The position numbers and the translations under genes were made by a program. A stretch of DNA of 64,000 nucleotides, taken from positions 868,001 through 932,000 of the forward strand of contig CP142726.1 in the NCBI GenBank assembly GCA_036630325.1, written 5' to 3'. The stretch is from Vairimorpha necatrix (lineage: Eukaryota). Shown here piece after piece: positions 7,302 through 57,206 of this stretch (its first letter is position 1; each line of letters starts with the position of its first letter). The notes under the pieces are model-generated. The model made no database searches. It had not been told where the DNA came from and saw only the letters and a program-made list of their open reading frames with translations.

Positions 7302-8565
7302 CAAAAAAATATTATGGAAAAGAAGAGAATACTTGTCAGGTGTATTATTTAATATTTATGCAATTTTTGTATGATTAAAGATTTGTTCTTGGTAGTTTAC
7401 ATTTTTCATTATAGAATTCAAATTATTCTATCTTTTTTATATGAAGATAAAAATTTTATATTTAAAATTGCATGCACTCTTTTATATAAACATTAAAAAT
7501 GCGATTTTTTAAGTTTAATAATCAAATCTCACAACTTATATACGTAATAAAGGTTTATATATATATCTTTGTATCCTGCTTTTAGCACAAATTACAACTT
7601 GGCCTAATTTGGAGCAAGAATAAAATAACAATAATTTTTTTTTATACAAAAAAGAAGAGTTGGGATATCGGCCGAGAAAATAAAGAAAAACGGAATATGC
7701 CGAAGTATATTTCATATGCGTTACTTGTTGCATAAAAAACTTGTTAGACATCCTATCAAATTTATAATGAATATATATTGTGATGTTGTAAAATAAGCTT
7801 TATGAAAAGATTATTTTTAAAACATTAATTTGCATCCCCAAACGAGCAAATTTGAGGTCCGATCATGCTTTCACACATGCTTTAGTTGAGAATTGTTCTT
7901 ACATTAGAAATTATTTATAGTAAGTCTTATTCTATACCTTTGATTTATTTGTAAAATTATTTAGTCTTATATATTTTACAAATTAAAAATGACGCTTGAA
8001 CCAAGTGCTTTAAAGGTTGTGTTAATACATAACCAATTTTGTATGCATACAATCCCTAAAAGGAAATTGTAACTAATAAGTGTTTCATCTACTCAAATAT
8101 TAAGTTTTTTCTATTTCAATAAAGTAATCATTAAAGTTGTGTGCTTTCCGTTATTTAAAGGAAACTACAGGTAGATAAAAGCAACCTTAAAGTTGAAGTA
8201 ACGCAGGTTTATTTTCACGCTATTGTACATAAAAGAGCTACTTGGGGTATAAAAAGATTGTGATTGGTGCATTCTGAGATGCAACCTTTCAAGCCTAATA
8301 TTGAAATTATATGAAGCAGAGCAAAGAAGTTTTGTGTACCTTTCTCATCGGACCATTTAACCACTGATCGAAACTTGTAAAAACTTGTAATCGCGGTCTA
8401 TAAGGCGAGGATTGAAGACGTGGAAAGTAAGTAGGAATATACAAAAGGCAGATGTCATAAATACCTTGATCCAGAACGATAATATTTATCTCTATTGCAT
8501 TAGCCGAGTCTGTCAAATTTAGCCGCCGTACTATCACATTGCAACCGAAAGGGAGGTTTATTTAA

Positions 8566-9216
8566 TTTGCAAGAAAGGAGAGGGAACCCTTACATAGTAC
8601 CAGGAGGACTTGTTAATTCTTATTCAATTGGTACTTTAGATTCTTACTCACTAATCCCACTACATATAATTTACCGGCGCAGCAAGCTTTGCTGTATTCA
8701 TTGGACCTAGGCACCAGGAACCCTCTCTTATACTATATTTCAGGTCTAGTCAGAGTGACATCACAGCGGATATACACGGACATGGTTATCTATAGCCCGA
8801 GAAGGAACATCATCATTACTCAAAGCTTTACACAAGTATCCGTATCTCATACACGACTTATTGTTCCCGTGACATCACCACCCGGCATTTTTTAAGACGC
8901 TGCGTTGATCACTATTCTCCCACAAGTTTTGGTCGCCATATCACAAGAATCTGAAGCGCAGGGCCGACGAGACCTTTAATCGCTCTACTTCCAGTCTCTT
9001 AGTTGATTCCAGGATCATACACTGGAGTGCACCACCGAAGCGTTCCAACTATGGCGTACCCAGCAGATACTTTAATGTATCAATATGTCACTACGGGGGA
9101 TACTGTTTTCGGCCATAAGGTGCGTTCATACACTAGATGCTAATCTCCTTCTGGCTATGCGCACACAAGTTTCATTGAATTAACTTGGTATTTATCGCGA
9201 ATATTTTTCATCATCT
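8566..9216 (-). mobile_element. Diverged SINE-family copy lacking the tRNA head
   Basis: Colinear with 50322-50980; shares the blocks ttgcaag, gattcttactcactaa, catggttatctata.cccgag and cactagatgctaat. Confidence 0.8.
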
Positions 9217-9345
9217 GAGTTGTTCAAACTACAACATAAAAAGAAAACTTCTATGCTGATTTTTGATTACAGTCATGACCAAAGATGAGCTCTGTCTACG
9301 GCTGCCCACACGCCTAGAGCTGTAAATTGAAAAAATTCTCTTGGC

Positions 9346-9505
9346 GACAAAGTCCAATGGATACGGCGGAGGTTGCTGCACTAGCAAATTATATGTAGGG
9401 TTTTTAATGAGTAAGAATCTCGCAGTATCAGTAAGATGAGGATCGCAGTTTACAGTCCATCATGTTTTTGTGGAAGGTTTCTTGGTTTCTCTTAATACAA
9501 GAGAA
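9346..9505 (+). mobile_element. 3' fragment of SINE family (part of the inverted duplication)
   Basis: gtccaatggatacggcggag...tgagtaagaatctcgcagta matches the SINE 3' portion and the reverse complement of 40863-41021. Confidence 0.75.
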
Positions 9506-21478: not shown

Positions 21479-22602
21479 GAGCTTCTCATAGCCCAGGGAT
21501 CAAATGCAGAGCTCGTGATTGGGCATCGCTTGGTTTATTTTTTCAAGGGCATCAAAAAGGTTCTACTTTTACGATAAAATTTAAACAACTAACTATGAAA
21601 ATAGATTCGATACCTTATTATTGATTCATTGAAACTTTTGCAAGTCCAACCATAAGAGGATTGTCATCTGGATTAGGAACGCGTCTTTAGGCCAAAACAA
21701 TATCATTCTACTGCTGACTTATCGAAACATAAAATTATCTGTTGGTACGGCCGATTTGTAGCCAATTTTGCTTCATTCTGGTGTGGATTTTAAGAGTCAA
21801 CTAAGCGACGAAACAAGAAGTGCAGTGAAAGGCCCGTATTTTCTATCTTACAGATTCTATAACACAGAATACGATTTTGTGGCGACTAGTGGTCAATAGA
21901 GTCCAATAAAATGCCGGCGAAAGAGTGACAGTGTACAGTACCGCATGTGACTACAGACGATTGTTAAGTAATATGAGCTAGTACGGTAATGTCTTTTCCC
22001 GGAGTATGAAAAACATGTCCATTAATTATACCCTCTTTGAGGTTACTCGAAACGCGATTTGAGGTTTTATTGAAAATAATATCCGGAAGCCGATGTTAAC
22101 GGAACGTGAGCTTGCTCTACCGATAAGTTAAGTAAAGGATGTTTTAGTATGTGGCGTGTTTACCGGGAAGCTTGCCTGTGGCAAGGAAGTATTCAATGAT
22201 GCTACGGTTTGGGAAGCCGTAAACCCCGGAGTTAAAAGAGTTAGAGTGAAAGGGTTGTTTATTGTTATGAAAAGAGTTTTGTTTATCTGATTTGTAGAAG
22301 GAAGAGTGTTTGTTTGCGTTCTGATGTTGTACCATGTTGTTCATGGAATTTCTCTATTTATATACATGGTAACCAATAGAGAAGAAATAAGATTTGGCTG
22401 ACCAATAATAGTCGACCATAACTGATCGTTCCAAAGAAGCATCAGCGTTTAAGTATTTATTGGTTTTTAACAATCATGTGGTATGATTCATTATACCACA
22501 GTATGTAAGCTCAAAAAATTTCCGTATGTATGAATTAACCCCAAATTTAATCTGTCCTTCTGCAAAGCTTCTCCTCCTCTCTTACTTGCAAAGAAAAAAA
22601 AT
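21479..22602 (+). mobile_element. Old full-length SINE copy carrying a ~350-bp insertion
   Basis: Degenerate tRNA head (tagcccag...attgggca...ggttt...agggcatcaaaa), colinear body, 3' end cttacttgcaaagaaaaaaaa, 11-bp TSD ttaaataaatt (21468-21478) / ttaaacaaatt (22603-22613). Confidence 0.75.
22150..22500 (-). mobile_element. Solo-LTR-like insertion inside a SINE copy
   Basis: TGTGG...CCACA termini, overlapping direct repeat agtatgt at both junctions, TATATAAA and AATAAA on the minus strand; removing it restores SINE colinearity. Confidence 0.55.
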
Positions 22603-22999: not shown

Positions 23000-23290
23000 A
23001 TTTTTTTCTTTGCAAGTAAGATGTAGGGCGAAACCTTACGTGGGGATAAGAAAGATTAGAAAGGGGGTTTCTCAATTGGTAATGCGATATTCTTACTCAC
23101 TAAAACCCTCTTCATTTATTGGTAGTGCTGCAAGCTTCGCCGTGGCCATTGGACTTTGGCACCATGGGAATTTGTTTACTTTATAACTCAAATCGCGCCC
23201 AGAGTGGTCTCTTAGCAGATATACTAAAAGTGTATTATCTTCTATACCCCGAGGGGAAACATCATCGTACTAACTCAAAGGTTTTTACGA
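23000..23290 (-). mobile_element. 5'-truncated SINE copy
   Basis: ttttttctttgcaagtaag...ttcttactcactaaaa...catcatcgtactaactcaaagg matches 50314-50590. Confidence 0.8.
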
Positions 23291-24722
23291 GCCAGAAAAA
23301 CGGGCTTATGTTTATTTTAGCCTTGATCTTCAAATGTAAAAAAGTTATTAAACGAATTCAGAAGTGTAATTTCGCAAAATTTAACGATTCTGTACTCAAT
23401 CATATTAAAGATAAGACTGAAGATTTTATTGATCTTTATGAAGTTTTATATTAAACTAATTTTATTTGTGCCTATATGGTGAAAAATTCTTTAAGATAAT
23501 TTTATGCAACTAGCAGAATGAAATTACTACACAAAACATTCAAATAATATAAGATTGAGATCGTCATTAGACTAATACTGCGTGATCCTTTCAAAACTCA
23601 CATTATCTAGTTTGGCCGTGAAGAAAGCACAGCTGTATTCGGCATAAATTCACGCCTGAATTATAATTATACTCTATTTAAAACAGCGTAAAAATTCCAT
23701 ATCAGATATAATTATCATGCATTGTTTGAGTATTCCGACAAAACATTATTTTTATCAAATTTTTTTTTGCTATCATCTGTACCTCACACAGCCTCCTTGC
23801 CTCATAATTTCAGCCAGCAACCATGTTATTAGTTGTGTTTGCTAATACGTTTCACAAGTGAAGTGTAGCATGTTCGAATACTTTAGCACCACATGCGATG
23901 GACGATCCCATAATATTAGATTTCTGCAAAAATCCAAAAAGTCCTCAGAAAATGTACCAAAAAGAATTCATATAAGACATGTAGTATTTTTTACATACTT
24001 TGAATAAGATGGAATGCAAAAGATTTTAGACCTAAAATATTTTCTTTCTGCGATATATTCTACATTTGCTGAAAAAATTTAAAAATCATCTTTGTGGTAT
24101 TATAAATACCACAAAATATTTATTTTTATTTTATCAATTTTCCCTTTTTGGAAAATAGACCATTCGACCGGTCTATTTCAAAAATCGAATATTTATTTCT
24201 TTTTTGCCCTGACCCCCACCGGATCATGAAACAAACTAACGATCATTACCCTTGGGAACATAGACCAAGGAAGGGCTACCAAGCCAGGGATCAGTATCCC
24301 GTAACAGATGCCCAACGAGGCTTATTTAATAACAATAAAATCATTAATTACATCGAACTATATTTATCCAGAGGTAGCTCCTCTGGACTACGTCAATCTT
24401 AACTATTCACATGTATTTTTCATTTTAAAAAGGTCAAAGAAATTTCAGTAAAATATTTTAAGGCATTACGCAAAAATCGACCCGGGTTTTTATATTATTA
24501 ACGTAAAGCTTACAACATCTAAGCAACAAGCCCGCCTTGTTTCAAAATCTCGAAGACCACAAAAACGAACAATCAAAATTGAAAAGCTCATATAAAGTGA
24601 CTAAAAGCGATAAAATCTTGAAGATTCTGGAGTGATTTTGCTTTTAAAAGTAATTAAATGAGATACAAGAGTATAGTATTTTATCAGACAACATTTTTCA
24701 AAAACTATAGTTAGAAATTAAG

Positions 24723-25095
24723 TTTTTTTTTTCTTGCAAGTAAGAGGTAGGTAGAAACCTTACATAGGGGCCAGAGGGATTTGGGGGTGATCCTCATCCA
24801 ACTGGTACTGTGAGATTCTTACTCACTAAAACTTCTTCCATACAACTTGCCGGTGCAGCAAGCTCCGCCGTATCCATTGGACTTTGGCTCCAGGAGAACA
24901 CTTTCCATTTATACCTCAAATCGCGTCCAAGTGAACTCACAGCGGATATACTTAACGGGCATGGTTATCTATAACCCGAGGAGAGACATCATCGTACTGA
25001 CTCAAAGGTCCCTACAATCATCTGTATTGTACACACGTTTCCTTACACGACCACATCCCCAGCCCGGCGTTTTTATTGGGCTGCGTTGACCACCA
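24723..25095 (-). mobile_element. 5'-truncated young SINE copy
   Basis: Highly similar to 50314-50675, with poly(A) tail (T run 24723-24732). Confidence 0.9.
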
Positions 25096-26703
25096 GGAAA
25101 TTAATTGCTCTATGAAAATATAATTAAAAAGCGCGATAGGCCGAGACGAGAAAAAAAAAAATGAATATCGTTCCCCAATTAAAGTACTATTAAACCTCAA
25201 AAATGATTTTTTCGATATATTTTCATAGAAAACTTTAATATTTTAGGTTGCAAATGCTTACTTCGCAAATCAGGAAACTAAAGAAACTTTTTTAATACAA
25301 ATAGCTGTAACAAAAGAAGGTTAGCACTATATAAATGCGGGAAAGAAATGAGACAGAAAAATTTAACATCAATATAATAAAAAAATATAACATACTTTGT
25401 AATATTCGTGTGAATACAAAAAAACTTCTTATTATTTTTTTGAATGTACTATATAAATACGGCTTTAGACTCTAAGAAAACGGTTGTTGCGTTTTTTTTG
25501 TAATTTTAAGGACACAAAGCATCTTTTAACTATTTGTATATTGTTTATAAAAATTAACAAAGATAAATAAACGATTTTTATGCGATTTTATACAATCTGA
25601 TTATGATAAAATATTATTTTCGTTTGAAATAAAATGAACGAGGTTATGCCAGAAATAATACTACTTATCAGGCTGTATACTTAAAACTTTCTTAGATAAT
25701 ATAAAGATCATAAATAAGCATGTCATAACCGCAATTTTTAACAAAATGTGATTTTAGTTCAAAAATCAAATAATGCGTAAACGGCATGAACAAATTGCAT
25801 AGACAACATGAATATAATAAATATAAAGTATCAGGATCTGAAAAGTGCTAACCATGTATTTTAACAAATATTATGCATAATTTATTTATTTACAACTTTC
25901 TTAACGTTTTTTTTTTTTTTTTTTTGGGGGGGGGGGGGGGGTGTTAGTTCAAATTTATTTATATGCATTAGTGATTGGTTTTCGTTCTAACTGAAATATA
26001 CACCAAAACCTTTTTTTTAGTGAAAAAAAAACCATTTCATTTAGATCCGTTCCGTTCCTAATTTAAATGATTTTATAAAAACATTTATCAGAATTAAATA
26101 TCTTTTGTATGTTGTAAATTGTTTTTTAAGTCTTTAATTTCATTTTAACACTATGAAATATTGAAATTTACACTTTATATATTATTTTTTGCTCTATAAT
26201 GAATAAATAATATTTGTGATTTTTCAAAAGAAAATAAACAATTTGATTTGATCAGAAGTAAAATCACTGCAAGAATTAAATTATTTATACATTTACTAGA
26301 TAGAAAAGAATCATGGGACCAAAATCACATTATTATTTTTACATTACTGAAAGTAGATAATCAATTAAGATTATCTTAACTATTTGTATTGTGTAATACC
26401 TATAAATAACATTAGATTATGTTTTTTAAATTTCATCAATTTTTTCTTTCATTGTATTTCCCAAAATAATATATTTATTTTAAGAATTGAGAACAGAATT
26501 TAGAATAATATAAAAATGAAACATTTGACTTTTAATTTGCTATTTTAATATATTAATATACCATATTGATAAAAAAATAATGAAAAAAAGAGATTCACAT
26601 TTTAAAATAGACATATTGAGAGGTTTATACGGGAAATCAAAAAAAACTCCTAATTTAAAAAACCCATTTTTTCAAAAATAAAAGTTTATCTAGTACCCAT
26701 AAA

Positions 26704-38956: not shown

Positions 38957-41021
38957 TATAAACAGTAAATATTTAATTTATTTCATAATTAATGTCAAAC
39001 ATAATTTCATCTTTCGCATTCAGAAAATTAAATTCATCAATTTCTATTTTGGCGTGTTTTATTAGGCGATCTGGGTAAATATCAAAATACTTAATTTTAC
39101 TGTTTTCTGTGTATTTGTAAACATCATTTTTTACGAAGAGATTTTTAATATTCTGTATTGTGTCAGAATATTTTCTAGTGTAAAACTCGGAAATTCTCTT
39201 TCTTATTTTTCGCTTGGTCGACTTGCTTCTAAATTTCTTGGAAGATCTGCGATCTTCTAATCTATTAAATTTTTCATTTTGTAAATTAGTGATATAATAT
39301 TGCCTGTATTTTGTTATAACTCTTTCTAATTCTGAATAATATAAATTAATAAAGAATTTGCTTATCAAATTATACTTTAAATAGTATAGTTTAAGAATAT
39401 TTTCTATTTGGTATTTATTTATGTCTGTAGATTTGATAATTTTATTATTTTTAGGAATATGTTTCAAAGAGGTGACAATTCTAGTGTATGGATTGAACTT
39501 AGAACAGGATTTTTTATATACAATTCCTGGTGTATCATTTTTATTTGATCTATCGTCATTTGTGCAATTAGAATAAATTAAGCTATATTCATCATAATTA
39601 ACTGAATTATCGGCTACTATATGTTTATTTTCCATTTTAGCGCCCATTATATCACGAATGCCTGTTGTATCTTCATTCATATTATTTATTACTGATGTAT
39701 TTAGAATTATACTGTCTGTGAAAATATTACTCGACTCAAAATCATCTTCTTTATTTTCTATATGCTTATTTGTTTCTAAAGATACAAATTTATATTGTAT
39801 ATCTACAAACAACTCATCGTACGTAAAATCTGCGTACAAAGGGCTGCTCAACTCTATTTTATATTTAGTATTAATATTTTCAATATAACTTGGTACGTCG
39901 GATAAACTGCCCAAATCTACACAATCTTCAATAAACAAAATAAACTCTTTGTTTCTATATTCAATATAATAATCTTTTATATTTATACACATTCCTTTGT
40001 GCAAATTAATCTTAGAATTAGTAATTTGAGCTCTAATAAAGAAATCTTTATCTCTTAGAATAAGATCAGATTTGTGTTTTGATAAGATTATATCAACAAT
40101 TTGGACATTTTGATGAGATTTATCCATTGTGTCATTTCTTAGAAGCTTGGTTATTGAATCAGAAAACCAATTTTTCAAGAAAAAGACCATTGGGATTATA
40201 GGGGGATATAGAAAAACAAAGAGAGGAGTAAAATAATATAGACGCATTGTGTAAGCAAATAAAATATGGAGAGAAAATGACTCAGACTTTTTTAGATTAG
40301 TAGACATGTATAAACTGATGATAAGGTTATGTTTTAATAGGAAAATACGATAAAACTATGTAAAATAATAAAAAGTCATAATTTAAAAAAAATGCTCATT
40401 ATTTTTATAAAATCTTACTTTATGTGATCTTTTGGATTTCCAACAGACCATGAAGAATGTTTTAAGCTAAGCTTTTTATTATGCTCTAAGCCCCCGGGCA
40501 TGTTTTCCTTTATGTTTATAGGCGAGAAAATATTGTACAATATTTCCTTCAAAATTCATAATAGAAGGAAGCGGCGGAATACTTATAGAATGGTATATCT
40601 CGTCCAGAGGAAACTAAGGATCAATAAAGGGTTATTTCTTGACACTTGCTATTTCAAATTTTTTTTTCCTATTTGCTTAAGAATGTTTGTAAAAAATAGT
40701 TTGTTTGTTAAATAAGGTTAACCTTAAAAAACTATAAATATTCTGGTATTTGCATGAATACAGAATGCCAAATTCTTATACACAAGAGAGTCGTACATGA
40801 AAAATATAAGCAAAAAATATATAGAGAATAAAAATGTAATAACTATAAAATAAAATTTGACTTTCTCTTGTATTAAGAGAAAGGAAGAAACCTTACATAA
40901 AGATCTGATGGACTTGTTTTGCGATCCTCATCTTTCTGATACTGCGAGATTCTTACTCATTAAAAACCCTCCATATAATTTGCTAGTGCAGCAACCTGCG
41001 CCGTATCCATTGAACTTTGTC
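38957..41021 (-). repeat. ~2.07-kb segmental duplication, copy 2
   Basis: Reverse complement of 9346-11414. Confidence 0.95.
38973..40190 (-). CDS. Hypothetical protein with N-terminal TPP1/Est3-like OB fold, copy 2
   Basis: Near-identical to 10180-11397. ATG at 40190 is preceded by atccca (CCC motif); the upstream in-frame extension to 40307 is not open in copy 1. Confidence 0.6.
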   Translation of the reverse strand: MVFFLKNWFSDSITKLLRNDTMDKSHQNVQIVDIILSKHKSDLILRDKDFFIRAQITNSKINLHKGMCINIKDYYIEYRNKEFILFIEDCVDLGSLSDVPSYIENINTKYKIELSSPLYADFTYDELFVDIQYKFVSLETNKHIENKEDDFESSNIFTDSIILNTSVINNMNEDTTGIRDIMGAKMENKHIVADNSVNYDEYSLIYSNCTNDDRSNKNDTPGIVYKKSCSKFNPYTRIVTSLKHIPKNNKIIKSTDINKYQIENILKLYYLKYNLISKFFINLYYSELERVITKYRQYYITNLQNEKFNRLEDRRSSKKFRSKSTKRKIRKRISEFYTRKYSDTIQNIKNLFVKNDVYKYTENSKIKYFDIYPDRLIKHAKIEIDEFNFLNAKDEIMFDINYEIN

Positions 41022-41370
41022 TTAGAGGAATCGGTTATTATCTTTATTCTTATCTCTGTCCATAGTATACGAGCAAATATTTTATCGCACACGTTTTAAC
41101 AACGGGAGCCGGGACATCATCGTACTAACTCAAAGGTGCCTGCCATCATCTACATCTTACATACATTCCTTATGCCGCCACGTCCCAAGTCCTTATTTTA
41201 AAGGCCGTGTCAACGACATAATCTGACGACAATTATGACCAGAGTGTCGCAGAATTATATTGGAAAAGGTCCACGAACCCTCTTTCCTCCACTTCGTCTG
41301 GTCTCTAGATTTAGCAAAATGATCCTTCATCGAGCGTATCCATCTCGAACCTTTTCTATCCATACAGTTG
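40863..41370 (-). mobile_element. Diverged 5'-truncated SINE copy
   Basis: gatcctcatc..., gattcttactca, ccgtatccattg, catcatcgtactaactcaaagg colinear with 50320-50800. Confidence 0.75.
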
Positions 41371-41547
41371 TTTACGTACAATGGCGTGTAATTACCTACA
41401 TTATATATGACTTTAAAGTGCGTTTTTACGTTATACATGAAACTACTGTGGCTATACGCCTACATGTTATAGTACAACCTAATGATTGGCGTGAGCACAT
41501 TTTTATACTTGGAAATAATAAATCTTAGCAAAAAACAAATTTAGTTT

Positions 41548-44149: not shown

Positions 44150-46677
44150 TTAATATTGATAAACATACTCCCCTATTTGTTCTCCCACTTGATTTTCATA
44201 AGTTCCATAGCATTTTACAAATAAAATTGAGTTGTCGGTTCTCTTTAGTAATATTTGCGTCAGTGCACTTATAAAATGAGTCTGTACCAATCTTTTCATC
44301 AATCTTGCTCCGTACACAGATGAATGCGCTTTTACTACTATTTCCTCGGCCACTGCTTGACTTATTACGAATTTCATATTCTTTTCTTCTAGTCTCAAGT
44401 TGAGTTCATTGATTTGATATTCAAGAATCTTACTGAGGCAATTAAAATCTAACTGGTTGAAATAAATGACATTATCAATTCTGTTGACAAAAGGCGGCCC
44501 AAATCTCTGTAATACTATTCCTTCTAGTTCTGATCTTTCCTTTTCTCCTATACTAGGACTATTCATTATGACATGTTGACCGAGATTAGAAGTCATAATT
44601 ATTACACAATTCCTGTAATCCACGACCACCCCCTTGCCGTCTGTAATTCGTCCCTCGTCAAGTAGTTGATACAAAACATTGAGCACAGACTGGTGGGCCA
44701 AATCTACCTCGTCCAAAAGGATGACATTGTAAGGCTTCCTTCTTATGGGCTCAGTAAGTGTGCCCCCTTCATTGTACCCGACATACCCAGCAGAGGCACC
44801 TATTAATTTAGTCACTGATAGTTCATTTCCATAGTCACTCATGTCGAGAACTACCATGTTCTTCTCATCATCAAATAATTCAGAGGCCACTGCCTTGGCC
44901 AACTCAGTTTTTCCTACACCACTAGGCCCTAAAAGTAAAAATGCCCCAATGGGCTTGTCTTTCCTTGCAAGGCCCACTCGCGACTGAAGAATTGAAGACA
45001 CAATGGCATTGACTGCTTCATCTTGCCCAAATATTCTCTTTTTAATTCTAGTAGACATTTCTAATAATCTTTCATTCTCCTTCATAGTCAACCTCTTGAC
45101 CGGTATTCCTGTCCAATTGCTTATCTTCTCTGCTATGTGGTGTGTCTCAATTATTTCTACTCCTGTCAATTTCTTAATTTCTTCTTCTAATACTGGGATC
45201 ACATTCGTCTTCAAATCATAGGCCAAATATGACTGCCTGTCTCTTTCGGCTTGGATTAGTTTCAATTTTGTATCTTCTAATTTTTTACGTAATTCTTTTG
45301 CCTGGATTATGTCTTTTTTCTCATTTAGATAATTTTCCTCTAAAGGTATCATAGATTCTTTAATACCTTCTATCTTCTTTTGAACCTCTTCTAGTTTTTT
45401 ATATATAATTTCTTTATCTTGTGTATTTTTGAGATCCATTTCTAAACTCGTCTTTTCTAATTCAAGTGACCAAATTTTATTTTTTGCCTCTAAAATTTCT
45501 TTGGGTTGACTTTCTAGAGAAATTACGGCGCTCGCACATGCACTGTCAATTAAATCTATGGCTATGTCCGGCAGTCTTCTATTCGGAATGTACTGCTTAG
45601 AAGATTTCGCAGCGTAAACTAAGGCATTGTCACTTATTTTCACCCCATGGTGTAATTCCATTCTTTCTCTAATTCCTCTTAACATTGTAATTGAATCTTC
45701 TATTGATGGCTCTCGTACAGGGACTTGTACAAACCTCCTTTCGAAGGCGGGATCTGATTCTAATATTTTCTATACTCGTCTTCTGTAGTAGCTCCTATAC
45801 ATTTGATAGACCCATTTGCCAGTCCTGGTTTCAACATGTTGGCCGCATCCATGGCACTGTCTGAAGTCTTTCCTGCTCCCAATACAATATGTATCTCATC
45901 AATAAACAAAATTACGCCCGGTGTGCTCTCTGCTTCTTTTATGAGATCCTTCAATCTTTGTTCAAAATCCCCTCTGTGGCAAGCACCCGCCACCATTCCG
46001 CCTACGTCGACATTGTAAATCTTAGCATTTTTTAGCCCTGGAGCTTCTCCATTTGCAATTCTCTGTGCTATGCCATTTACTATAGCTGTCTTACCTACAC
46101 CTGGTTTACCAACCATAATCGCATTACTCTTCGTCTTCTTACAAAGTATTTCTATAATTTCTCTTATTTCTTGTTCTCTACCAATTACAGGATCAAAAAT
46201 ATTTTGTCTAGCTTGGTCGACCATATCAACTGCGAATTTTGACATAATATTTTCTGTATCATCAGCGTTGACATTGTCCATCTTTTTATCGCCCCTAAAG
46301 TTTTTTATCTTTTTTATTATTTCCTCTGTATTGCTAAGATAACTTTTTATATGGTCAAGATTTAGAATATTGATCAAAATCGAGTCAACAGAAACAAATT
46401 CATCATTAGTTTTGAATACTTGTGACAATTTATAAGACATTTGTGGCTCTACTGGTTGGCCTGCTTTCCCGAATGTATTGATTTTATTGATTATTTTGTC
46501 AGTCCAGATATTTGTTTCCTCTTTTGATAAGACCTTTCTTAGGATCGAATTCGAATTTTCTAGTAAGACATTTAGTAAATGTTCTGGTTCTAGTTGAGTG
46601 TTTTTATTAAGTTGTGCTTTTGCAATTGTTTCTTCAATAAGTTCTCTTGCTTTGTTTGTGAATTTTGGATTTGTCAT
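44150..46677 (-). CDS. clpB: Hsp104/ClpB family disaggregase; apparent 1-nt deletion near 45761 splits it into two ORFs
   Basis: NBD1 GKPGVGKT/LFIDEIH; after the frameshift ESDPAFERRF, RRLPDIAIDLID; NBD2 GPSGVGKTE, GYVGY, LLDEVD, GAR. Confidence 0.93.
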
Positions 46678-47454: not shown

Positions 47455-48090
47455 AATGATGAAATATTCTTATAGAAATTTATACGATGATTTACAAAAA
47501 AATTGAGTTTGGGCACTAGGAGACTTACAACTAGTTGCAAATGTACCATATGGTCAGTAAAGATATAAGTTGGATTCGAGCCACTTTACATATAGTACTA
47601 AATTGGTTCTAAAAAGCCCTTGATTGATGCGCTCTAAGACATGATCTATCAAGCTAAAACAAGGAACTAGCATATTAAAACCAAGTTGCTTCGTACTCCT
47701 TATTCTACAGGATTCAGAAACATGCTGATAGAAATTTGTGGGGCTGGTTCCGACACAATCTTTAATGTAAGGGTTGTGTAAGGAGGCGTGTGCAAGATAA
47801 GGATAATTGTAGGGACCTTTGAGCTAGTACGATGATGTCTATTCTATGATTAATAAAACTTTGCGGTAATAATATTTGTTGTAAGTTCGATCGGAGACTT
47901 GAGATATTCATGGAAAAATATTATAATAACACCAAAGTTCAATAATTAAGGCAAAACTTGTTGCACGGCAAGTTTTAGGGAGGATATTTTAGTGAGTAAG
48001 AATCACACAGTACCAGTTGTATAAGAACACAGTAATGTGTCTTTTAGTCCCCACGTGAAACTGCTTCCTTTTTCGTATTTATAAAAAAAT
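47455..48090 (+). mobile_element. Diverged SINE copy
   Basis: ttgtagggacctttgagctagtacgatgatgtct and ttagtgagtaagaatcacacagtaccagttg match the SINE body; 5' boundary approximate. Confidence 0.7.
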
Positions 48091-49295: not shown

Positions 49296-49676
49296 TTAGA
49301 AAAAAAAACATAAATACGACTTGCTTGCAAATCATGTGGCTTCTCTCAATAAATATAAGCCGAAATATATCTTTATGTAATGACTTAGGATGGAATAGTA
49401 ACTAATTTTCTTCGCGCGCATACCAAAGAGCTCCAATTAGAACCCAGAACTGAAGTATAAATACAAACAAGAGTTCTTAAAATGACTTTTTAAAGCCTAA
49501 CTATGTCGGTCAGATATGGGCTTGATACTGTTCAAAGGGGGGTATATGAGAGTCAAATATGTGAATTTCAGGAGGAACTCCGGGATCTGTCAGAAGAGAC
49601 TGTAAGCGTATAATATTAAAAGTAATTAGTAAGTAAGATAATATAATATACCCAAAAAAGTAATTTTATTTTTTTA
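49296..49676 (+). mobile_element. RLE-type LINE 3' fragment
   Basis: aaacataaatacgacttgcttgcaaatcatgtggcttctct...gagactgtaagcgtat aligns with 62108-62480. Confidence 0.88.
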
Positions 49677-49707
49677 CATTCACGAATTTTATTTTTGATA
49701 AATACAA

Positions 49708-50199
49708 ATGTCAAATGCCCCTTTCATGGTGTCGTCCTTCTTAGAAAATATAAACACTCAAGAAATAAAAATAAGAGTCTTTTTTAAACATAAAATAGAA
49801 AATTTCGGATTTCTTGTAAGTGAAACATATAAAGACATAGAAGCCGGAACTAAGGTCGATGTTCCACTGTACATTGCTCAATTTCTAATAGAAAATAATC
49901 ATTGCACACTTGTCAATCCAATCCTTTCAGAGGAAACTGAAAACGATTTGAAAGCCAACTCGTCAATAATTAATCTGAATTCTCTATACAAAGAATTTTA
50001 CAAATTTATTGTAAATTTCAAATCTAATGATTTTGTTCTAAATATTATGTTTTCGAGGTATACTATACTTTATAAATTGATACTTAAAGAACAACTTGAT
50101 GAAGATGACGTATTTATGTTAGACAATAGTGAAAAAAAAATTATAAAGATGGCAAGGAAAAAATATTTAATGTACAGGGAATATTTTATAAAAAGTTGA
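49708..50199 (+). CDS. PSF3: GINS complex subunit Psf3
   Basis: F...IENFGFL......I..GTKVDVPLYIA, DLKANSSIINL......FY and LDNSEK match the Psf3 pattern. The start may be ATG 49726, after a CCCC motif. Confidence 0.72.
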   Translation: MSNAPFMVSSFLENINTQEIKIRVFFKHKIENFGFLVSETYKDIEAGTKVDVPLYIAQFLIENNHCTLVNPILSEETENDLKANSSIINLNSLYKEFYKFIVNFKSNDFVLNIMFSRYTILYKLILKEQLDEDDVFMLDNSEKKIIKMARKKYLMYREYFIKS

Positions 50200-50313
50200 A
50201 ACAATAAAAAAAATTTACTATTGTTCAAATTTTTATAATCAAAAAATTTTAAATTTAACTATATCTTTTATACAAATATGTAGGTGAATTTCAATTTTAA
50301 CTCTATTTTTAAG

Positions 50314-51079
50314 TTTTTTTTCTTGCAAGTAAAGGTAGAAAAACCTTAAATAGGGACCAATTTGGGTGTGATCCTCATCAACTGGTACTGTGAGATTCTT
50401 ACTCACTAAAACTTCCTCCATACTACTTGCCGGCGCAGCAAGCTCCGCCGTATCCATTGGACTTTAGCACCAGGAGAACACTTTCCATTTATGCCTCAAA
50501 TCGCGTCCAGAGTGACCTCACAGCGGATATACTTAACGGGCATGGTTATCTATAACCCGAGAAGAGACATCATCGTTCTGACTCAAAGGTCCCTACAATC
50601 ATCTGTATTGCACACACGGCTCCTTTCACGACCACATCACCAGCCTGGCATTTTTATTGGGCTGCGTTGACCACTAGTCTCTTACTAGTTTCGGCCACCG
50701 TGTTACAGAAACTTGCAGGATAGGGTCCACGAGACCTTCTATTGCCCTACTTCATCTAGTCTCCTAGTTAGCTCTATAATCCCACTCTATAGTGCGCCAG
50801 CCATGGGCCCAACTAGGCCATACCTATTTGATATTTTTATGTATCATTAAGTCATTACAAGGGTGATACTGTTTTTTTTTTGAGGTGCGTTTTTACACTA
50901 GATGCTAATCCCCTTGTGGCTGGACACACACAAGTTTCATTGAATCAACTTATAATTTCTCGTGGACATTTTCATCATCCGCATCATACAAAACAGGAAC
51001 AATTTTGGCGCCCCTGGGAATCGAACCCAGCCATTGCTCAATGGAAACATCGCCTTCTACCACTGGGCTAAGGGCGCCC
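50314..51079 (-). mobile_element. Full-length tRNA-derived SINE (766 bp)
   Basis: tRNA-like head, ~690-nt body, A8 tail and exact 13-bp TSD ctctatttttaag (50301-50313, 51080-51092). Confidence 0.92.
51006..51078 (-). other. tRNA-like SINE head with Pol III A and B boxes
   Basis: GGCGCCC/GGGCGCC acceptor stem, TAGCCCAGTGG A box, CTGGG-TTCGATT-CCCAG T arm; non-canonical anticodon arm. Confidence 0.85.
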
Positions 51080-51244
51080 CTCTATTTTTAAGGAGAAAGG
51101 GAGAACTTCGATGTAGAACTTTCAATAACATATGCTAAAAAAATACTTTTAAGGTCTAATTCGACTACTTATTCTAATATATATATATATATAACAAATA
51201 AAATTTTTTAAATTTTTTATATTTCTAATATAATAGTGTTATTA

Positions 51245-51383
51245 GTATGTATAATAATCGAAATAGGAATAACCTCCCAGGATAATTTACAGAAAGTAGA
51301 ACAGGAAAAACTAGAAAGTACGATATCTTAGCAAATGAATTGGGCCTAATGTACAAATTCAAAGTTCAAATAATATCATACGT
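51245..51383 (+). mobile_element. RLE-type LINE fragment, left part (continues after the hAT at 57207)
   Basis: IIEIGITSQDNLQKVEQEKLEKYDILANELGLMYKFKVQII.YV. Confidence 0.8.
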
Positions 51384-52789
51384 CGGGGGTCGGCAACCTT
51401 TTTGAAATAAAGTTCGGAATGGGTAATTTCAAAATCTTAAAACGAAAAACGGGCTTAAGCTCAAGAAAATATTTTAGAAAATATAAATAAATGCTCTGGA
51501 AATTTTTTAAAAAAAAAACATTTTGTAGCGAAAAATACGATTATGTTTTTTTTCAGTATTTTTTCAAAGATAGACATCATCAACAAGTATAAATTTTTTT
51601 ATATTAAAACGAAAATTATAATTAAATTTTTCTTACAAGAGTTTTCTTGAGTGATTAAAAGAATTGATAAAAATAATTTTAATGGTTTTATATAGATTTA
51701 ATAGATATTGTTTTGACAAGAATGAGAAGCAACTTTCTTCATAATTACTACGAAAAGAGGTTTAAATTTTGTTTTCGATTAAATCTCGAAGAAATAACAA
51801 AAATTAACTACGTGTAGAGAAATACTAAGAAACAATACTTTTTAATGAGAAACTTGATTTTGCATGTCATCTGCAATTTGTCATAATTAATGATATAAGA
51901 TGAATTGGCAGCTCTTAAACTGTTATCTAAATGTTTGTTTGTAAGTTGTGTTCGAAATTTTAATTTTAAATACGTCATATTCGAAAAAGAGCTTCACGAT
52001 TATATGTGGTTTCACAATATGAAAATATTTTGAGTTGCACTATTTCTTAAAATGGAAAAACTATTATCTGAAACCAATTTCAAAAGTCCTTGTCTAAATA
52101 ATGAGATTTTAAAACTATATCATTCTTCAAATTAATAATTTCAATTTCTAAGTCGTCCATGTTAACTATATGAAAAAAATTAGAAATTTTTACTGGTAAA
52201 TCAGAATCAAAAACATTAAAAGGATTAACAAAAAATGGAATTAATTCCTCTAATGATCGAAAATCATGAAATTTTTTAAAAAACTCAATCAATAATAAAT
52301 CTATTGCGCCTATGTACGTTGTAGGATCGAATTCATGAATACTTAAATTTATTTTTTCAATTATTAACTTAGTATTTTGAAAATGAGATAAGGATTTCTT
52401 CATCAAATGTATTTTAAAAAGTTCTAACTTATTTGCAAAAGAATTAATTAAGCTTATCATATCTGCAATATGTGAATTCTTTTGTTGTAATTTTAAATTT
52501 AGTTCATTAAATTTCATTGTGATATCCGCTAAAAATCCAAGATCTAATAGCCAACTTTTGTTTTCTAATTCTATATAAGTTTCATTTCTCATTGCAATAA
52601 ATTCCTTTAGTTGAGGTAAAAGCTTAATAAAGCGTTCAAGAACTTTGCCTCGGCTAAGCCACCTTACTTCTGTATACAGAACTAAATCTTTTAAATCTGC
52701 GTTTTCTTCCTCCATAAGCAGCTTAAACGGCCTATTTTGAGTTGCTTTGGCTCTTATCGAATTTATAATTTTAGTAACAATTAATAAAA

Positions 52790-55700
52790 TGTGTTTATTT
52801 TCCATAATAAGGAGAAAAAATAATAAGGATATATAACATCCCCCCTCCAAGACGGTAGTCTCATACTAGAACTCATTAATCCCAAGCAGACCTTTTAAAT
52901 CATAATGCCGCTTTTTCACGATCCTACCATTTTCCAAACTAACTAAGTACGAGTCACCTCCGCAAACTTCCTTGATAACACCATATCCTAAAAACCTTCC
53001 TTTCTCATACTTACTACAACCCGATAAGTTCTCTTTCTTCGCTACCCTAACTCTCTGACCTTTATAGAATTTCTCTCTTTTGCGAGCCACAAACCTCCTA
53101 CTATAAAATCCTTCAGGTCCATTCTCGATCATAACATGGCCCGTTTCGTCTCTTGAGGCCTCAAACGGTGTACATCTCAACCCTTCATGATAGCTGTTAT
53201 TATAACGCCATATACATCTATTAACCTTGGCTTCAAAATCCACAGCATCATCTTTCAATATTCCTTCTCTTATGGTTCCTATTACCCTTTCCACTCTTCC
53301 ATTACTTCTATGACTTTCTACGCTTACTTTCCTATGTAATACATTTTCCTCTGAACACCAATTCCTCATATATTCATTACTAAATTCTTTACCGTTGTCA
53401 GTAATTATTTCTACCGGTTTCATTCCTGATCCACACAACTGTTTTAAAAATCCTACAACCGAGCTTCCGCGTTTGTCCTCTATTACTTTTCCCCAAACGA
53501 TCCTAGTATAATAATCAATCACGACCAACACATATTTCCCTAAATCTCTAAACTCAATCAAATCCAAAGCAACCTTTTCCAAATAAAATCTTGAACTAAC
53601 AAAATCACAACCACCACTCTTTTTCCTATTATGTATTTGGCAAACTTCACACTTCTTTAAAACATCCTCGATATCCTTCTTCATACCCGGCCAATAAAAT
53701 TCAAACTTCATTGCATAGTACACTGGTCCTAAACTTCTATGTCCCAAATTTTCATGAGCATTGACAATTAAACCTTCACGCAATTCTTTCTTTGGAATCT
53801 CCGCTTCTCTACCAGAGTCAAATACCCAAATTTCCTTTCCATCAACAACTTTAACATGCTTGTCCCATTTACCCTGTGCCTGTTTAATACTTCTCTCCTT
53901 ATTCATTAGCGTTTTCTCATTTTCATGTACCCTACTCAGTGCATCTGCTACAACCATGGTACTAGGCTCTATATATTCAATGCTAAAGTCGAACTCTTGA
54001 ATCTTTTCAATCCACCTGTTAATTCTATTATTGTTAAATGCTGGTTTATTTCTAATCTCGATCAATGCCTTATGATCAGTTTCTACCCTAAATCTTCTTC
54101 CGCGTAGTTCATATTCAAACTTTTTAATTCCCCAAAAGACTGCATACATCTCCTTCTCACTGATTCCATATCTCTTTTCCGTAGGCGTAAACTTTTTTGA
54201 TGCCCACTGTACTGGTACCCAATTACCTTGATCATCTTCCTGCATTAAAACAGCACCCATTCCAACATTACTCGCATCCGTGCGTAACAAAAATTCCTTA
54301 TTATAATTAACAATTGCTAAACCTTTTAAATCCCTAATCACTTCCCTTAAACTAATATATTCTTTTTCCATTTCTTCTGTCCATTTCCAATTACTTCCTC
54401 GTCCTTTAAGAGAATCCGTCAACGCCAATGTACGTTTTGCATAATTATCAATATGATTTCTAAACCATCCAGCCAGCCCAAGAAACTTCCTAACATCTGA
54501 TACACACTCCGGTTTGGGAAATTCTAACGCTTCATTTTGCTTTATTTCAGATGGCAGTATCTCCTTGCCATTAACTGTTACTCCTAACAACATCACCTCT
54601 CGTTTACATAATTGAACCTTAGCCAAATTAATTTTCATATTATTCTCCTCTAATATATCCACAGCCTCTTTCAACAATTTGTCGTGACCCTCTCTTGTCT
54701 TACTATGAATCACAATATCGTCCATATAAATTTCGATTCCCTTACCAATAAATTTTTCAAAAATCCCATTCATTATTCTTTGTAATATCTGCGGTGAGTT
54801 TTTAAACCCCATGACCATCGAATTCCACTCGTATACCTTTTTATTAAACTCAAAAGCCGTCTTAAACCTATCCTTCTCTTCAATCTCAATACTATAAAAC
54901 CCCTCCTTTAGATCTATCACGGTAAAAAATTCAGATCCCTGTGTACTTCTAATAACATCTCTTATCCTAGTTAACTCATAAGGGTCCTTCTCTACAATGT
55001 CATTAAGAGCAATTAAATTACTTACTAATCTTATATCACCATTCGGTTTCTCAATCGCTCTAATGGGATTTCTCCAGTCAGATGTCGACCTTCTAATTAT
55101 CTTTCTTCTTTCCAAACTATTAATATAATCTTCCGTCTTCTTCAACAAAGCCTGAGCTATAGCCTGCCCTTTTTTAACAACTTTCTTGCCTTCTTGAGTC
55201 TTGATAATACATTTTTCAACCTTACAAAAACTAATATCTTCATCCTCTCTTCCTCCTACCCGTGAAATAATCTCCTCTAAATACGCGATGCCTCTTACAT
55301 CCCTTCTCAACAGAACTCTCTTATTATTGTCCCTTTTGCTATAATCTTGTATATCCCCTAAATTTTTCTTCTTACGTTTCCCACCATCAACATTATAATA
55401 ATCACATTTGTCCGAATTGGAATCGTCATCACATTTACCCTCTAAGTCTAATTGCACTTTACATTTACCAACATAATTAAAACTACTTTTATTTCTTCTG
55501 TCTTCAGAATCTCGCCTCATTCCCCTACAAAATCTAACACTATGGCCTAACTTCCCACAATTGTAGCAACGCATATTCTTTTTATTTTCCTCACGAGACA
55601 ACTTATTCTTCTCCTCAAATTTAGCCCATAACGCTAGGGACAACTCTTCAAATTCTTTTTTTCTCACTTGTTCCTTTTCCTCCTGAATAGCTAGCAACTC

Positions 55701-55973: not shown

Positions 55974-57206
55974 TAAAATATGATTAAAATTAACACTTTT
56001 TGAAAATAAAACTTGTTGATGAATTATACAGTGATATGAAATATACTTTGGAAACAAAGAATCTTTTCTACATAAACCAATAAATCCGTTTTCTTTTCCG
56101 ACCATTGCTCGTGCACCATCAGTAGTAATAGAAGAAAGTTTTTGAAGTGGTATATTTTTATCGACAATAAATTTTTATAATAAAGAAAAAATGTCTTTTC
56201 CCGTTGTACGAGCAGTTAAATGTAGAATTTTCAAAAATCTCTCTTTAGTTGAAAAGTCATTAAATACCATTTTTATAGAAACAATATGTTGTGCTGTGTC
56301 AACTACATCGGTAGATTCAATAAGCTGAAAAGAGAAATACATACAATTTCTTAAGTCTTTACCTAATTTTGATTCTAAATTATTAGCAATTAATTCTATT
56401 ATTCTTGATTCAGTTCTAGCTGATAACTGCAACATATTAATAGCTTTTAAAATTTCTGTCTTGTTTTCAAAATCTTCATAAAGAGAATCCGCCGCTGTTA
56501 TCATGGCCTCTTTTATAATTTCTGCATCAGTAAAGGGGGTTTTCTCAGCCAACAGATGTGCAACTTTTATTGAAGCTACAGTGCCCGCCTTCGAAAGCTC
56601 TTTTGGCTTTGTAAAATATCTCTGCTGTTTTACAATTGCTGATTTAGAAGATATCAACTTACTTTTTCGCAGTTCGGAATTCAGTGGGTATTCAATATTT
56701 ATATTTTCATGCAAACCATTAAAGTGTCGTTCTAAGTTACTTTTTTGCATATTGCAAAGCTTTTGTTGCACAATAAACAAATACACTTACCTTTAAATTC
56801 TATAAAGAAAAAATCTTCTTCCCATGAATTATTAAATTGATAATTTCTTTTTTTTGAAGGTTCCATATAAGGGGCAAAAAAATTTTGTAATAAATTTTTA
56901 AAATTTATTGAATGTTGCATTAGCATGTTTTATGGCATAATTATTGTCAAAATAAATTCTAAAGAACTTTATAATTGAAATAAACAATTTTATTGTTATA
57001 ATCATCAAATGTAAGAAAATTTTTGTTGAAAGGTCTTTTTGCTTAACGGAAAGTACATCAACTCCTTATAATGTACTCCCAATATTTAGCATTAAAAATG
57101 TAATTGACCAAATTTATTTTAAAAAAATAAAATATTAAATTTTTAAAATTTCTTCTTAATGTGAAAAATGAAAACGGGCGCTTCGTTGCCGACCCCCGCC
57201 ATACGT

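What the first reader, a model, noticed from the sequence alone, without database searches (positions are those of the whole stretch)
50301..51092. Full-length tRNA-derived SINE with an unusually long body
Seen: tRNA cloverleaf-like head with A and B boxes, ~690 nt of relatively GC-rich non-coding body, TTGCAAG+A8 tail, and an exact 13-bp TSD. Known: this is the signature of a Pol III-transcribed SINE inserted by target-primed reverse transcription; most SINEs are shorter. The 3' end does not resemble the 3' end of the RLE LINE fragments in this window, so the mobilising partner is not evident. To my knowledge SINEs are little characterised in microsporidia.
Basis: partly seen in the sequence, partly recalled or inferred. 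Interest (0 to 1): 0.8.

Follow-up and report, generated by a model that had tools for sequence, protein, structure and literature searches.

The report
tRNA-headed SINE-like retroposon family
A 766-base mobile element that starts with a tRNA look-alike and ends in a run of A's sits between exact 13-base target duplications and belongs to a repeat family filling about 7% of this window; it is an ordinary kind of element (a SINE) that seems not to have been described for this group of organisms.

Summary
On the minus strand, 50314-51079 is a 766-bp unit. It has a 74-nt tRNA-like head with perfect A and B boxes, a 676-nt non-coding body (element 45% GC, window 29%), a CTTGCAAG+A8 end, and exact 13-bp target-site duplications abutting both ends.

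It belongs to a family. The window holds seven further loci, with two more fragments, together about 7.2% of the window. One is a 5'-truncated copy with its own exact 8-bp duplication. Two older copies keep decayed heads.

Contigs of two related public runs pile up on the element, head included. One contig appears to join the flanks across an empty site, but only 28 letters lie on its short side.

Best reading: a tRNA-derived SINE spread by a LINE's target-primed reverse transcription, and recently active. Pol III transcription and the LINE partner are inferred.

A length of 766 bp is normal for reported fungal SINEs (472-900 bp). My searches found no characterised microsporidian SINE, only a "SINE 0.18%" table row for Nosema bombycis. 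The taxon of the window was not verified. Verdict: new member of a known kind.

The parts
50301..50313 (.). Target-site duplication, copy next to the A tail (CTCTATTTTTAAG on the + strand)
   Evidence: Exact 13-mer, identical to 51080-51092
50314..50321 (-). A8 tail
   Evidence: Read directly
50322..50329 (-). Terminal motif CTTGCAAG. CTTGCAA is shared by copies c24, c23, c08 and c21.
50330..51005 (-). Non-coding body. It includes the near-invariant block AGTGAGTAAGAAT about 90 nt from the 3' end.
   Evidence: No reverse transcriptase or endonuclease family among the 67 frames, which include the element's 8 frames of 50 aa or more. Rfam found nothing there. Block conservation.
51006..51079 (-). 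tRNA-like head. A box 51060-51070, B box 51017-51027. Anticodon-loop reading UC-CAU-UG.
   Evidence: ARAGORN; Rfam tRNA 27.7 bits against gathering 29; box coordinates
51080..51092 (.). Target-site duplication, copy next to the head
24723..25096 (-). Copy c24. 5'-truncated at about position 401 of the reference, 92.6% identical to c50, A10 tail. Exact 8-bp duplication GAAATTAA (+ strand) at 24714-24721 and 25097-25104.
8558..9315 (-). Copy c08. 72% identical to c50. Its upstream 100 nt is homologous to the head and linker of c21.
   Evidence: c08 against c21: 1 of 1500 null segments reach the score; c50 against c08: 44 of 1500
21479..22601 (+). Copy c21. Old copy (64% identical) with a decayed head. 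The body runs to 22148; the family's 3' end resumes at 22530-22601 after about 380 nt of unrelated sequence. Flanks are ATTAAATAAATT and TTTAAACAAATT (10 of 12 alike).
23002..23291 (-). Copy c23. 5'-truncated near reference position 480-490, A-rich tail, no clear duplication.
23553..23818 (-). Weak internal fragment of the family
   Evidence: nhmmer E 6.3e-9
40877..41503 (-). Copy c41. Old copy (58% identical). No significant head.
47455..48070 (+). Copy c47. Old copy (59% identical). Head not detected in the local test; my anchored test failed for this copy.
9308..9487 (+). 3' fragment of the family. It lies at the edge of a 2-kb inverted segmental duplication (9346-11414 against 41021-38956, 93.5%), so it is largely a duplicate of the 3' end of c41 and not an independent insertion.

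Best explanation
A tRNA-derived, non-autonomous non-LTR retroposon (a SINE) of 766 bp, and one of the younger members of a family that is abundant in this genome region.

Proposed cycle:
- The A and B boxes in the tRNA-like head recruit RNA polymerase III. This step is inferred.
- The transcript runs through the 676-nt body to the encoded A-rich end. This step is inferred.
- A LINE-encoded reverse transcriptase and endonuclease, not present in this window, nicks an AT-rich target and copies the RNA by target-primed reverse transcription. The step is inferred, but the resulting hallmarks are shown: an A tail, target-site duplications of variable length (13 and 8 bp), and 5'-truncated copies.
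- After insertion the copies drift towards the genome's AT richness. GC falls from 45-47% in the two most similar copies to 34-40% in the most diverged ones. This is shown as a trend.
For: 1. Anatomy and an exact 13-bp duplication that encloses head, body and tail.
2. A family of seven further loci plus two fragments, 4,611 bp or 7.2% of the window.
3. Copy c24 is 5'-truncated and 92.6% identical over 363 nt. It has an A10 tail and an exact 8-bp duplication abutting both ends.
4. The head belongs to the family. The c21 head aligns with the c50 head (0 of 3000 null segments reach the score). The 100 nt upstream of the body are alike in c08 and c21 (1 of 1500) and in c50 and c21 (1 of 1500).
5. 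Two related public runs give flank contigs 95-99% identical to the window. 281 and 322 contigs were laid on the 3.4-kb stretch. Summed depth over the element, head bin included, is 170-530 in X1 against 0-79 for its flank bins. In X2 it is 3,100-142,000. X2's adjacent flank bins read 28-54 and most others 90-490, though three bins at the ends of the stretch, which may hold other repeats, reach 3,300-6,000. Seven X1 contigs leave the stretch at 51075, the 5' edge of the head, into unlike sequence (agreement 0.54).
6. One X2 contig (depth 165, like single-copy neighbours) joins 50313 to 51107, with 13 other letters in place of the 14 nt that follow the second duplication. This is the pattern of an empty site with a single copy of the target.
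7. There is no coding capacity. Rfam gives only the tRNA-like match.
8. The T4 run 14 nt after the head is private to this copy. All 5 X1 contigs and all 4 X2 contigs there read C at 50993.
Against: - No transcription evidence of any kind.
- No LINE coding remnant in the window. No element in it shares the 3' 90 nt except family members.
- A T4 run at reference positions 669-672 is kept in most copies, and a T5 run at 737-741 occurs in this copy. Either could stop Pol III before the 3' end if this organism terminates at T4-T5.
- T runs are not depleted relative to shuffles: 3 observed, 2.4 expected.
- 766 nt is long for a Pol III transcript.
- The head scores below Rfam's tRNA gathering score. 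It was not compared with the organism's own tRNAs.
- The empty-site contig has only 28 letters on its short side, under the tool's own 31-letter rule.
- Copies c41 and c47 show no significant head.
- In c21 an exact 13-mer AAAATTTAAACAA lies at 21576 and at 22598. It would frame a headless unit and competes with the 10-of-12 duplication around the headed unit.
Confidence: 0.8

Rival explanations
1. A non-autonomous LINE derivative transcribed by Pol II or by read-through. The body and tail do the work, and the tRNA-like head is a passenger or an RNA-processing or stability module, not the promoter.
For: - Length of 766 nt, with a conserved internal T4 run.
- 5'-truncated and apparently headless copies are common: c23, c24, c41, c47.
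- T runs are not depleted.
Against: - The A and B boxes are letter-perfect in the young copy while the anticodon arm is degenerate. This is the pattern expected if the promoter function is what is kept.
- The head sits exactly at the 5' end inside the duplication.
- The T4 run next to the head is absent from the other copies seen.
Confidence: 0.12
2. A one-off chimeric retrocopy. A reverse transcriptase copying the 3' part of another RNA (a LINE or the headless repeat) switched template onto a tRNA, giving a single tRNA-plus-repeat fusion.
For: The structure of a small RNA at the 5' end, a partial element, an A tail and a duplication is what template switching gives (recalled from L1 and U6 or tRNA chimeras).
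Against: - The same head at the same junction is seen in c21, and probably in c08.
- The head bin is multi-copy in X1 and X2, and seven X1 contigs end at the head's 5' edge with different flanks.
- The head is not a canonical tRNA: 27.7 bits against 29, with C before and U after the anticodon.
Confidence: 0.04
3. A genuine tRNA gene that happens to lie beside a repeat, or a repeat that targets tRNA genes.
For: ARAGORN calls a tRNA. tRNA-gene targeting by retroelements is known in compact genomes (PMC5006619, search listing only).
Against: - The duplication encloses tRNA and repeat together.
- The apparent empty site lacks both.
- The score is below Rfam's gathering threshold and the anticodon loop is non-canonical.
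- The head region is multi-copy.
Confidence: 0.02
4. A solo LTR of a tRNA-bearing non-autonomous LTR element (Cassandra, Helenus or Ajax type), or a DNA transposon or MITE.
For: tRNA-like sequences occur in LTRs of such elements (PMC10886601, abstract in search listing). A Ty3/gypsy pol lies 1.8 kb away.
Against: - The 13-bp and 8-bp duplications, the A tails and the 5' truncations do not fit integrase or transposase insertion (recalled: 4-6 bp for LTR elements).
- There are no terminal inverted repeats or LTR-type ends.
- The element has no similarity to the gypsy region.
Confidence: 0.02

Closest known systems
Fungal tRNA-derived SINEs: MgSINE (472 bp, Magnaporthe), Foxy (Fusarium oxysporum), AfuSINE2 (Aspergillus fumigatus). 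Known to me from passages and the abstract of PMC5063351.
   Same: tRNA-related 5' head with A and B boxes, an unrelated body, short direct target duplications (4-14 bp reported for AfuSINE2), and low to moderate copy number in small genomes.
   Different: The present body is GC-rich in an AT-rich genome. The head still passes ARAGORN as a cloverleaf, whereas AfuSINE2 heads reportedly do not fold as cloverleaves.
Long fungal 'SINEs': mgsr1 (800 bp), Egr1 (700 bp), EGH24/egh1 (900 bp). Passage of PMC5063351.
   Same: Size class of 700-900 bp, non-coding, dispersed.
   Different: Whether these meet the SINEBase criteria is unclear. [quoted passage not shown] The present element has a clear tRNA-like head.
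'SINE' row (28,669 bp, 0.18%) and 'LINE Dong-R4' row (1.04%) in the repeat table of the Nosema bombycis genome paper. PMC3614468, Table 2 passage.
   Same: If the window comes from that clade, this family may be what was counted there or under 'Unknown' (14%). Dong/R4-type or other LINEs would be candidate partners.
   Different: That paper gives no description of any SINE in the passages seen. The taxon of the window was not verified. Its supplements could not be seen.

Membership tests
SINE (SINEBase working criteria, PMC3531059 'Definitions' passages) | Short (<1 kb), interspersed, non-tandem repeat | tested here: met
   766 bp. Eight dispersed loci plus two fragments in 64 kb. It exceeds the looser '<700 bp' wording of the same paper.
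SINE (SINEBase working criteria) | [quoted passage not shown] | not testable with these tools
   No genome is held. The only indications are 7.2% of this window and 281 and 322 contigs laid from two related runs, with summed depth far above most flank bins. The tool warns that depth is not copy number.
SINE (SINEBase working criteria) | At least 60% identity to a tRNA species over at least 60 nt | tested here: inconclusive
   No tRNA set of the organism is available, and the window holds no other tRNA. Proxies: an ARAGORN call, and a full-length match to the Rfam tRNA model, positions 1-71 of 71, at 27.7 bits against gathering 29.
SINE (general definition) | [quoted passage not shown] | not testable with these tools
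   A and B boxes are intact. SINEBase itself calls boxes an indication, not a proof.
SINE (general definition) | Non-autonomous, with no reverse transcriptase or endonuclease of its own | tested here: met
   The element's 8 frames of 50 aa or more were among the 67 scanned. Only three weak unrelated families were hit (best E 0.0057) and none is a reverse transcriptase or endonuclease. The call does not say which members hit.
SINE (general definition) | Retroposition by a partner LINE: A-rich or repeat tail, target-site duplications, 3' end shared with a LINE | tested here: inconclusive
   The hallmarks are met: A8 and A10 tails, 13- and 8-bp duplications, 5' truncation. No partner LINE and no shared 3' end were found in the window.
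Functional tRNA gene | Canonical cloverleaf reaching the family threshold, with U before and a purine after the anticodon | tested here: not met
   27.7 bits is below gathering 29, with non-standard pairs flagged in the D and anticodon stems. The loop reads UC-CAU-UG. The U33 and purine-37 rule is recalled.
tRNA-bearing LTR elements (Cassandra, Helenus, Ajax) | The unit is an LTR: paired around an internal region, short (4-6 bp) duplications, no A tail | tested here: not met
   13- and 8-bp duplications, A tails and 5' truncations. No paired arrangement in the window.

The most novel reading that the evidence does not exclude
This is the first characterised, recently active tRNA-derived SINE family of a microsporidian. 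Its GC-rich 766-bp unit makes up a sizeable part of the 'unknown' repeats of expanded Nosema-type genomes. It would be mobilised either by a restriction-like-endonuclease LINE of the Dong/R4 type, which would be an unusual SINE partner, or after horizontal acquisition from the insect host.
Probability: 0.25. Interest if true: 0.55.

Novelty: new member of a known kind. Interest (0 to 1): 0.4.

Why it matters
Microsporidia are models of genome reduction, yet some lineages have expanded genomes full of transposons, many of them shared with their hosts. A defined SINE family with fresh insertions would have three uses:
- It gives a marker system for strain and species typing, through presence or absence of insertions such as the one suggested at this locus.
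- It offers a handle on Pol III promoter and terminator rules in these organisms.
- It points to an active LINE machinery.

It would also let 'unknown' repeats in these genomes be re-annotated. None of this changes what is known about how SINEs work.

Tried and rejected
- Own genome: none held.
- RNA evidence: no RNA holder listed. All four runs laid were contigs, so expression could not be examined.
- X1 has no cover across the insertion junctions, so nothing can be said for that run. X3 and X4 held next to nothing.
- Public collections. Two conserved-motif patterns gave 0 hits in viral contigs and 0 in genome contigs. They gave 1 hit in metagenome contigs, L001. That is a GC-rich contig unlike the element apart from the two short motifs, with no tRNA, and I read it as a chance match.
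- LINE remnants. Pfam was run on 10 large ORFs, 20 mid-size frames, 150 non-genic frames of 50 aa or more, and 150 plus 59 frames of 36-49 aa together with the element's 8 frames. The only reverse transcriptase is the Ty3/gypsy pol. Fragments broken into shorter frames would be missed.
- T-run depletion on the sense strand as a Pol III signature: not significant, 3 observed against 2.4 in shuffles. A runs outnumber T runs 11 to 4 in the three least decayed copies, but A content is also higher.
- A conserved 3' stem-loop. The last 107 nt fold no better than shuffles (z 0.12). The GTGAG...CTCAC hairpin shows no convincing compensatory changes in 6 copies.
- The MFE fold of the head is a long hairpin, not a cloverleaf. 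This is uninformative.
- Protein Atlas on the unexplained 409-aa ORF: no usable hit.
- Literature. Searches found no description of a microsporidian SINE. Parisot 2014 (PMC4202319) has no occurrence of 'SINE' or 'SINEs' in its main text, nor has PMC7313128. PMC11585130 reports 0 SINEs for Microsporidia sp. MB. PMC13702014 only lists SINE as a repeat category. Repbase, Dfam and SINEBase could not be queried. Supplements are closed and may hold repeat libraries that include this family.

Full report
WHAT IS THERE

The feature lies on the minus strand. Read 5' to 3' in its own sense, it has four parts.
- A 74-nt tRNA-like head (51079 down to 51006).
- A 676-nt body (51005 down to 50330).
- The motif CTTGCAAG (50329-50322).
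- A run of eight A's (50321-50314).

The 13-mer CTCTATTTTTAAG (+ strand) abuts both ends, at 50301-50313 and 51080-51092.

ARAGORN finds one tRNA in the whole window, tRNA-Met(CAT) at 51006-51078(-). Rfam reports nothing at gathering thresholds. With relaxed thresholds the tRNA model matches over its full length at 27.7 bits, just under the gathering score of 29, with non-standard pairs in the D and anticodon stems. The anticodon loop reads UC-CAU-UG. The bases beside the anticodon are therefore C and U, not the usual U and purine (that rule is recalled).

By contrast, the Pol III box sequences are letter-perfect: TAGCCCAGTGG at 51060-51070 and GGTTCGATTCC at 51017-51027. The element is 44.9% GC in a window of 29.1%.

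IS THE DUPLICATION MORE THAN CHANCE?

Exact 13-mer direct pairs 300-1500 nt apart are not rare in this AT-rich window. There are 63 runs, 23 of them outside a tandem array at 4755-6841, and 4-20 pairs in each of 20 block-wise shuffles. So a 13-mer pair by itself proves little. The point is that this pair abuts exactly the first base of the head and the last A of the tail. From the observed density of such pairs I estimate that coincidence at about 1e-5 or less.

IT IS A FAMILY

BLAST and an nhmmer profile built from the copies find seven more loci and two fragments.
- c24: 24723-25096(-)
- c08: 8558 to about 9315(-)
- c21: 21479-22148 and 22530-22601(+)
- c23: 23002-23291(-)
- c41: 40877-41503(-)
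- c47: 47455-48070(+)
- Fragments at 23553-23818(-) and 9308-9487(+)

Together they cover 4,611 bp, 7.2% of the window. The 9308-9487 fragment lies at the edge of a 2-kb inverted segmental duplication (9346-11414 against 41021-38956, 93.5%). It largely duplicates the 3' end of c41, so it is not an independent insertion.

Identities to c50 run from 92.6% (c24) through 72% (c08, c23) and 64% (c21) to 58-59% (c41, c47). GC falls along the same series: 47%, 42%, 41%, 38%, 40%, 34%. This fits decay towards the genome's composition after insertion.

All copies that reach the 3' end stop at (C)TTGCAA(G/A) followed by an A-rich run.

RETROPOSITION HALLMARKS

c24 begins at about position 401 of the reference and carries an A10 tail. 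It is flanked by an exact 8-bp duplication (GAAATTAA on the + strand, 24714-24721 and 25097-25104) that abuts both ends. c23 is also 5'-truncated.

5' truncation, A tails and target duplications of variable length (13 and 8 bp) are the signature of target-primed reverse transcription by a LINE-type enzyme. This is established knowledge of non-LTR retrotransposition. These features do not fit integrase or transposase insertion.

IS THE HEAD PART OF THE MOBILE UNIT?

For c50 the answer is yes. The duplication encloses it.

In c21 a decayed head lies at the same place. Local alignment with the c50 head runs from the A box to beyond the 3' end of the tRNA, scoring 37, and 0 of 3000 random window segments reach that score.

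A second test aligned the 100 nt upstream of the conserved start of the body.
- c08 against c21: 1 of 1500 null segments reach the score.
- c50 against c21: 1 of 1500.
- c50 against c08: 44 of 1500.
- c41 shows nothing significant.
- My anchor for c47 failed, so that row is void.

One ambiguity remains in c21. The flanks of the headed unit match in 10 of 12 positions. But an exact 13-mer, AAAATTTAAACAA, also occurs at 21576 (between head and body) and at 22598 (after the tail). Because c08 and contigs of run X2 carry the homologous TTTGAAYAACTCA at that internal place, I read the internal copy as element sequence and the match as chance. A headless insertion is not excluded.

EVIDENCE FROM OTHER SAMPLES

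No whole genome is held for this window. Two public runs hold parts of 49500-52900 (shares 0.33 and 0.22). Their flank contigs are about 95-99% identical to the window, so they are related but not the same sequence (table 8).

281 (X1) and 322 (X2) contigs were laid on the stretch. The summed contig depth over the element, head bin included, compares with the flanks as follows.
- X1: 170-530 over the element, 0-79 in flank bins.
- X2: 3,100-142,000 over the element. The adjacent flank bins read 28-54 and most others 90-490.
- Three X2 bins at the ends of the stretch reach 3,300-6,000 and probably hold other repeats.

The tool warns that depth is not a copy number. I use it only as a sign of a multi-copy family.

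Seven X1 contigs leave the stretch at 51075, the 5' edge of the head, into mutually unlike sequence (agreement 0.54). This is what headed copies at different loci would give.

One X2 contig (depth 165, like neighbouring single-copy contigs) joins 50313 directly to 51107. It has 13 other letters where the window has the 14 nt that follow the second duplication. That amounts to one copy of the target and no element, the picture of an empty site. Only 28 letters lie on its short side, under the tool's own 31-letter rule. I count this as suggestive, not as proof.

POL III ISSUES

The sense strand of c50 has three T runs.
- T4 at positions 87-90. This one is private to c50: all 5 X1 and all 4 X2 contigs covering 50993 read C there.
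- T4 at positions 669-672. This one is kept in most copies.
- T5 at positions 737-741. This one is broken in c24 and in other contigs.

Whether T4 stops Pol III in this organism is unknown to me. T runs are not significantly depleted: 3 observed against 2.4 in shuffles. Pol III transcription therefore rests on the preserved boxes and the position of the head, and remains an inference.

THE PARTNER

No element in the window other than family members shares the 3' 90 nt. I scanned 387 stop-free frames against Pfam.
- 10 large ORFs.
- 20 mid-size frames.
- 150 non-genic frames of 50 aa or more.
- 209 frames of 36-49 aa plus the element's own 8 frames.

The only reverse transcriptase is a Ty3/gypsy pol at 52866-56105(-). 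The other transposon hits are MULE, IS1595/Merlin-like and DDE_1 fragments. The gypsy element is not a candidate mobiliser, given the duplication lengths and the A tails.

RIVALS

- A real tRNA gene beside a repeat, or tRNA-gene targeting, is contradicted by three things: the duplication, the apparent empty site that lacks both parts, and the multi-copy head.
- A one-off template-switch chimera is contradicted by the headed copies c21 (and probably c08) and by the X1 contigs.
- An LTR or DNA-transposon reading fails on the ends, the tails and the duplications.
- The serious rival is that the head is not the promoter and the unit is a Pol II or read-through non-autonomous LINE derivative. I give this about 0.12.

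COMPARISON WITH WHAT IS KNOWN

By SINEBase's working criteria (PMC3531059, 'Definitions' passages):
- The element is short (<1 kb) and interspersed. Met.
- Copy number of at least 100 cannot be tested.
- At least 60% identity to a tRNA could be tested only by proxy.
- Boxes are 'an indication, not a proof'.

Its length is above the '<700 bp' of the general wording. It sits within the range quoted for fungal elements called SINEs: MgSINE 472 bp, nrs1 500 bp, Egr1 700 bp, mgsr1 800 bp, EGH24 900 bp (PMC5063351, introduction passage). So 'unusually long' does not hold in that company.

For microsporidia, I found the following.
- A 'SINE 0.18%' row and 'LINE Dong-R4 1.04%' in Table 2 of the Nosema bombycis genome paper (PMC3614468, passage).
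- No occurrence of 'SINE' in two transposon surveys (PMC4202319; PMC7313128).
- Zero SINEs reported for Microsporidia sp. MB (PMC11585130).
- A repeat-category mention only in PMC13702014.

I could not query Repbase, Dfam or SINEBase, and supplements were closed. The family may therefore already sit in an unpublished or supplementary repeat library.

The window's gene content (Dicer, Mlh1, Dopey, Hsp104, and Merlin, MULE and gypsy elements) is compatible with an expanded Nosema-type genome. The taxon was not verified here.

VERDICT

This is a real, well-delimited, recently inserted member of a tRNA-headed SINE-like family: a new member of a known kind. Interest is moderate. It would be useful for annotation, strain markers and Pol III and LINE biology in these genomes, but it is not surprising mechanistically.

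Noticed in passing
window 4755-6841: Tandem array of about four units of roughly 520 bp, 78-80% identical to each other. Rfam gives weak snoR09-like matches inside it at 5225-5300 and 5741-5822, both far below gathering.
   Followed up: no
window 9346-11414 and 38956-41021: Inverted segmental duplication of about 2.07 kb at 93.5% identity. It carries paralogous ORFs with no Pfam family: 10180-11397 (405 aa) and 38973-40307 (444 aa), 94.6% identical in protein.
   Followed up: partly
window 52789-52839 and 55924-55974: Exact 51-nt direct repeat spaced 3135 nt apart. One copy lies at the junction of ORF 52080-52865 with the Ty3/gypsy pol ORF and the other inside that pol ORF. An X1 contig 'goes back 112' from 52900 to 52789. 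Possible rearrangement or assembly issue.
   Followed up: no
window 44150-46677 (-): An Hsp104/ClpB-type AAA+ chaperone is split into two adjacent ORFs, 45760-46677 and 44150-45685. This may be a frameshift, a pseudogene or a sequencing error.
   Followed up: no
window 19966-21195 and 26704-27990 (+): Two paralogous ORFs of 409 and 428 aa, 45.6% identical, with no Pfam family. The DNA is 68% alike over 1.4 kb. An Atlas search gave nothing usable.
   Followed up: partly
window 16220-16720(-), 42779-43300(-), 17212-17577(+), 28962-29399(-): Fragments of DNA transposons: two IS1595/Merlin-like DDE, one DDE_1 (pogo/Tc1-like) and one MULE.
   Followed up: no
window 49301-49633 and 62107-62440: Another dispersed repeat pair of 334 bp at 83.5% identity, unrelated to the SINE family.
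   Followed up: no
window, non-genic frames of 50 aa or more (positions not resolved): One frame hits Fip1 (E 1.3e-21) and one hits Ribosomal_L37e (E 4.5e-20). These are small genes that my ORF list of 120 aa or more had missed.
   Followed up: no
window 50314-50321 / 24722-24732: In the two copies with clean duplications, the A tail is followed by CTTAA in the element's sense. The c21 flank starts with TTTAA. This may be a target preference or just AT-rich background; n = 3.
   Followed up: no
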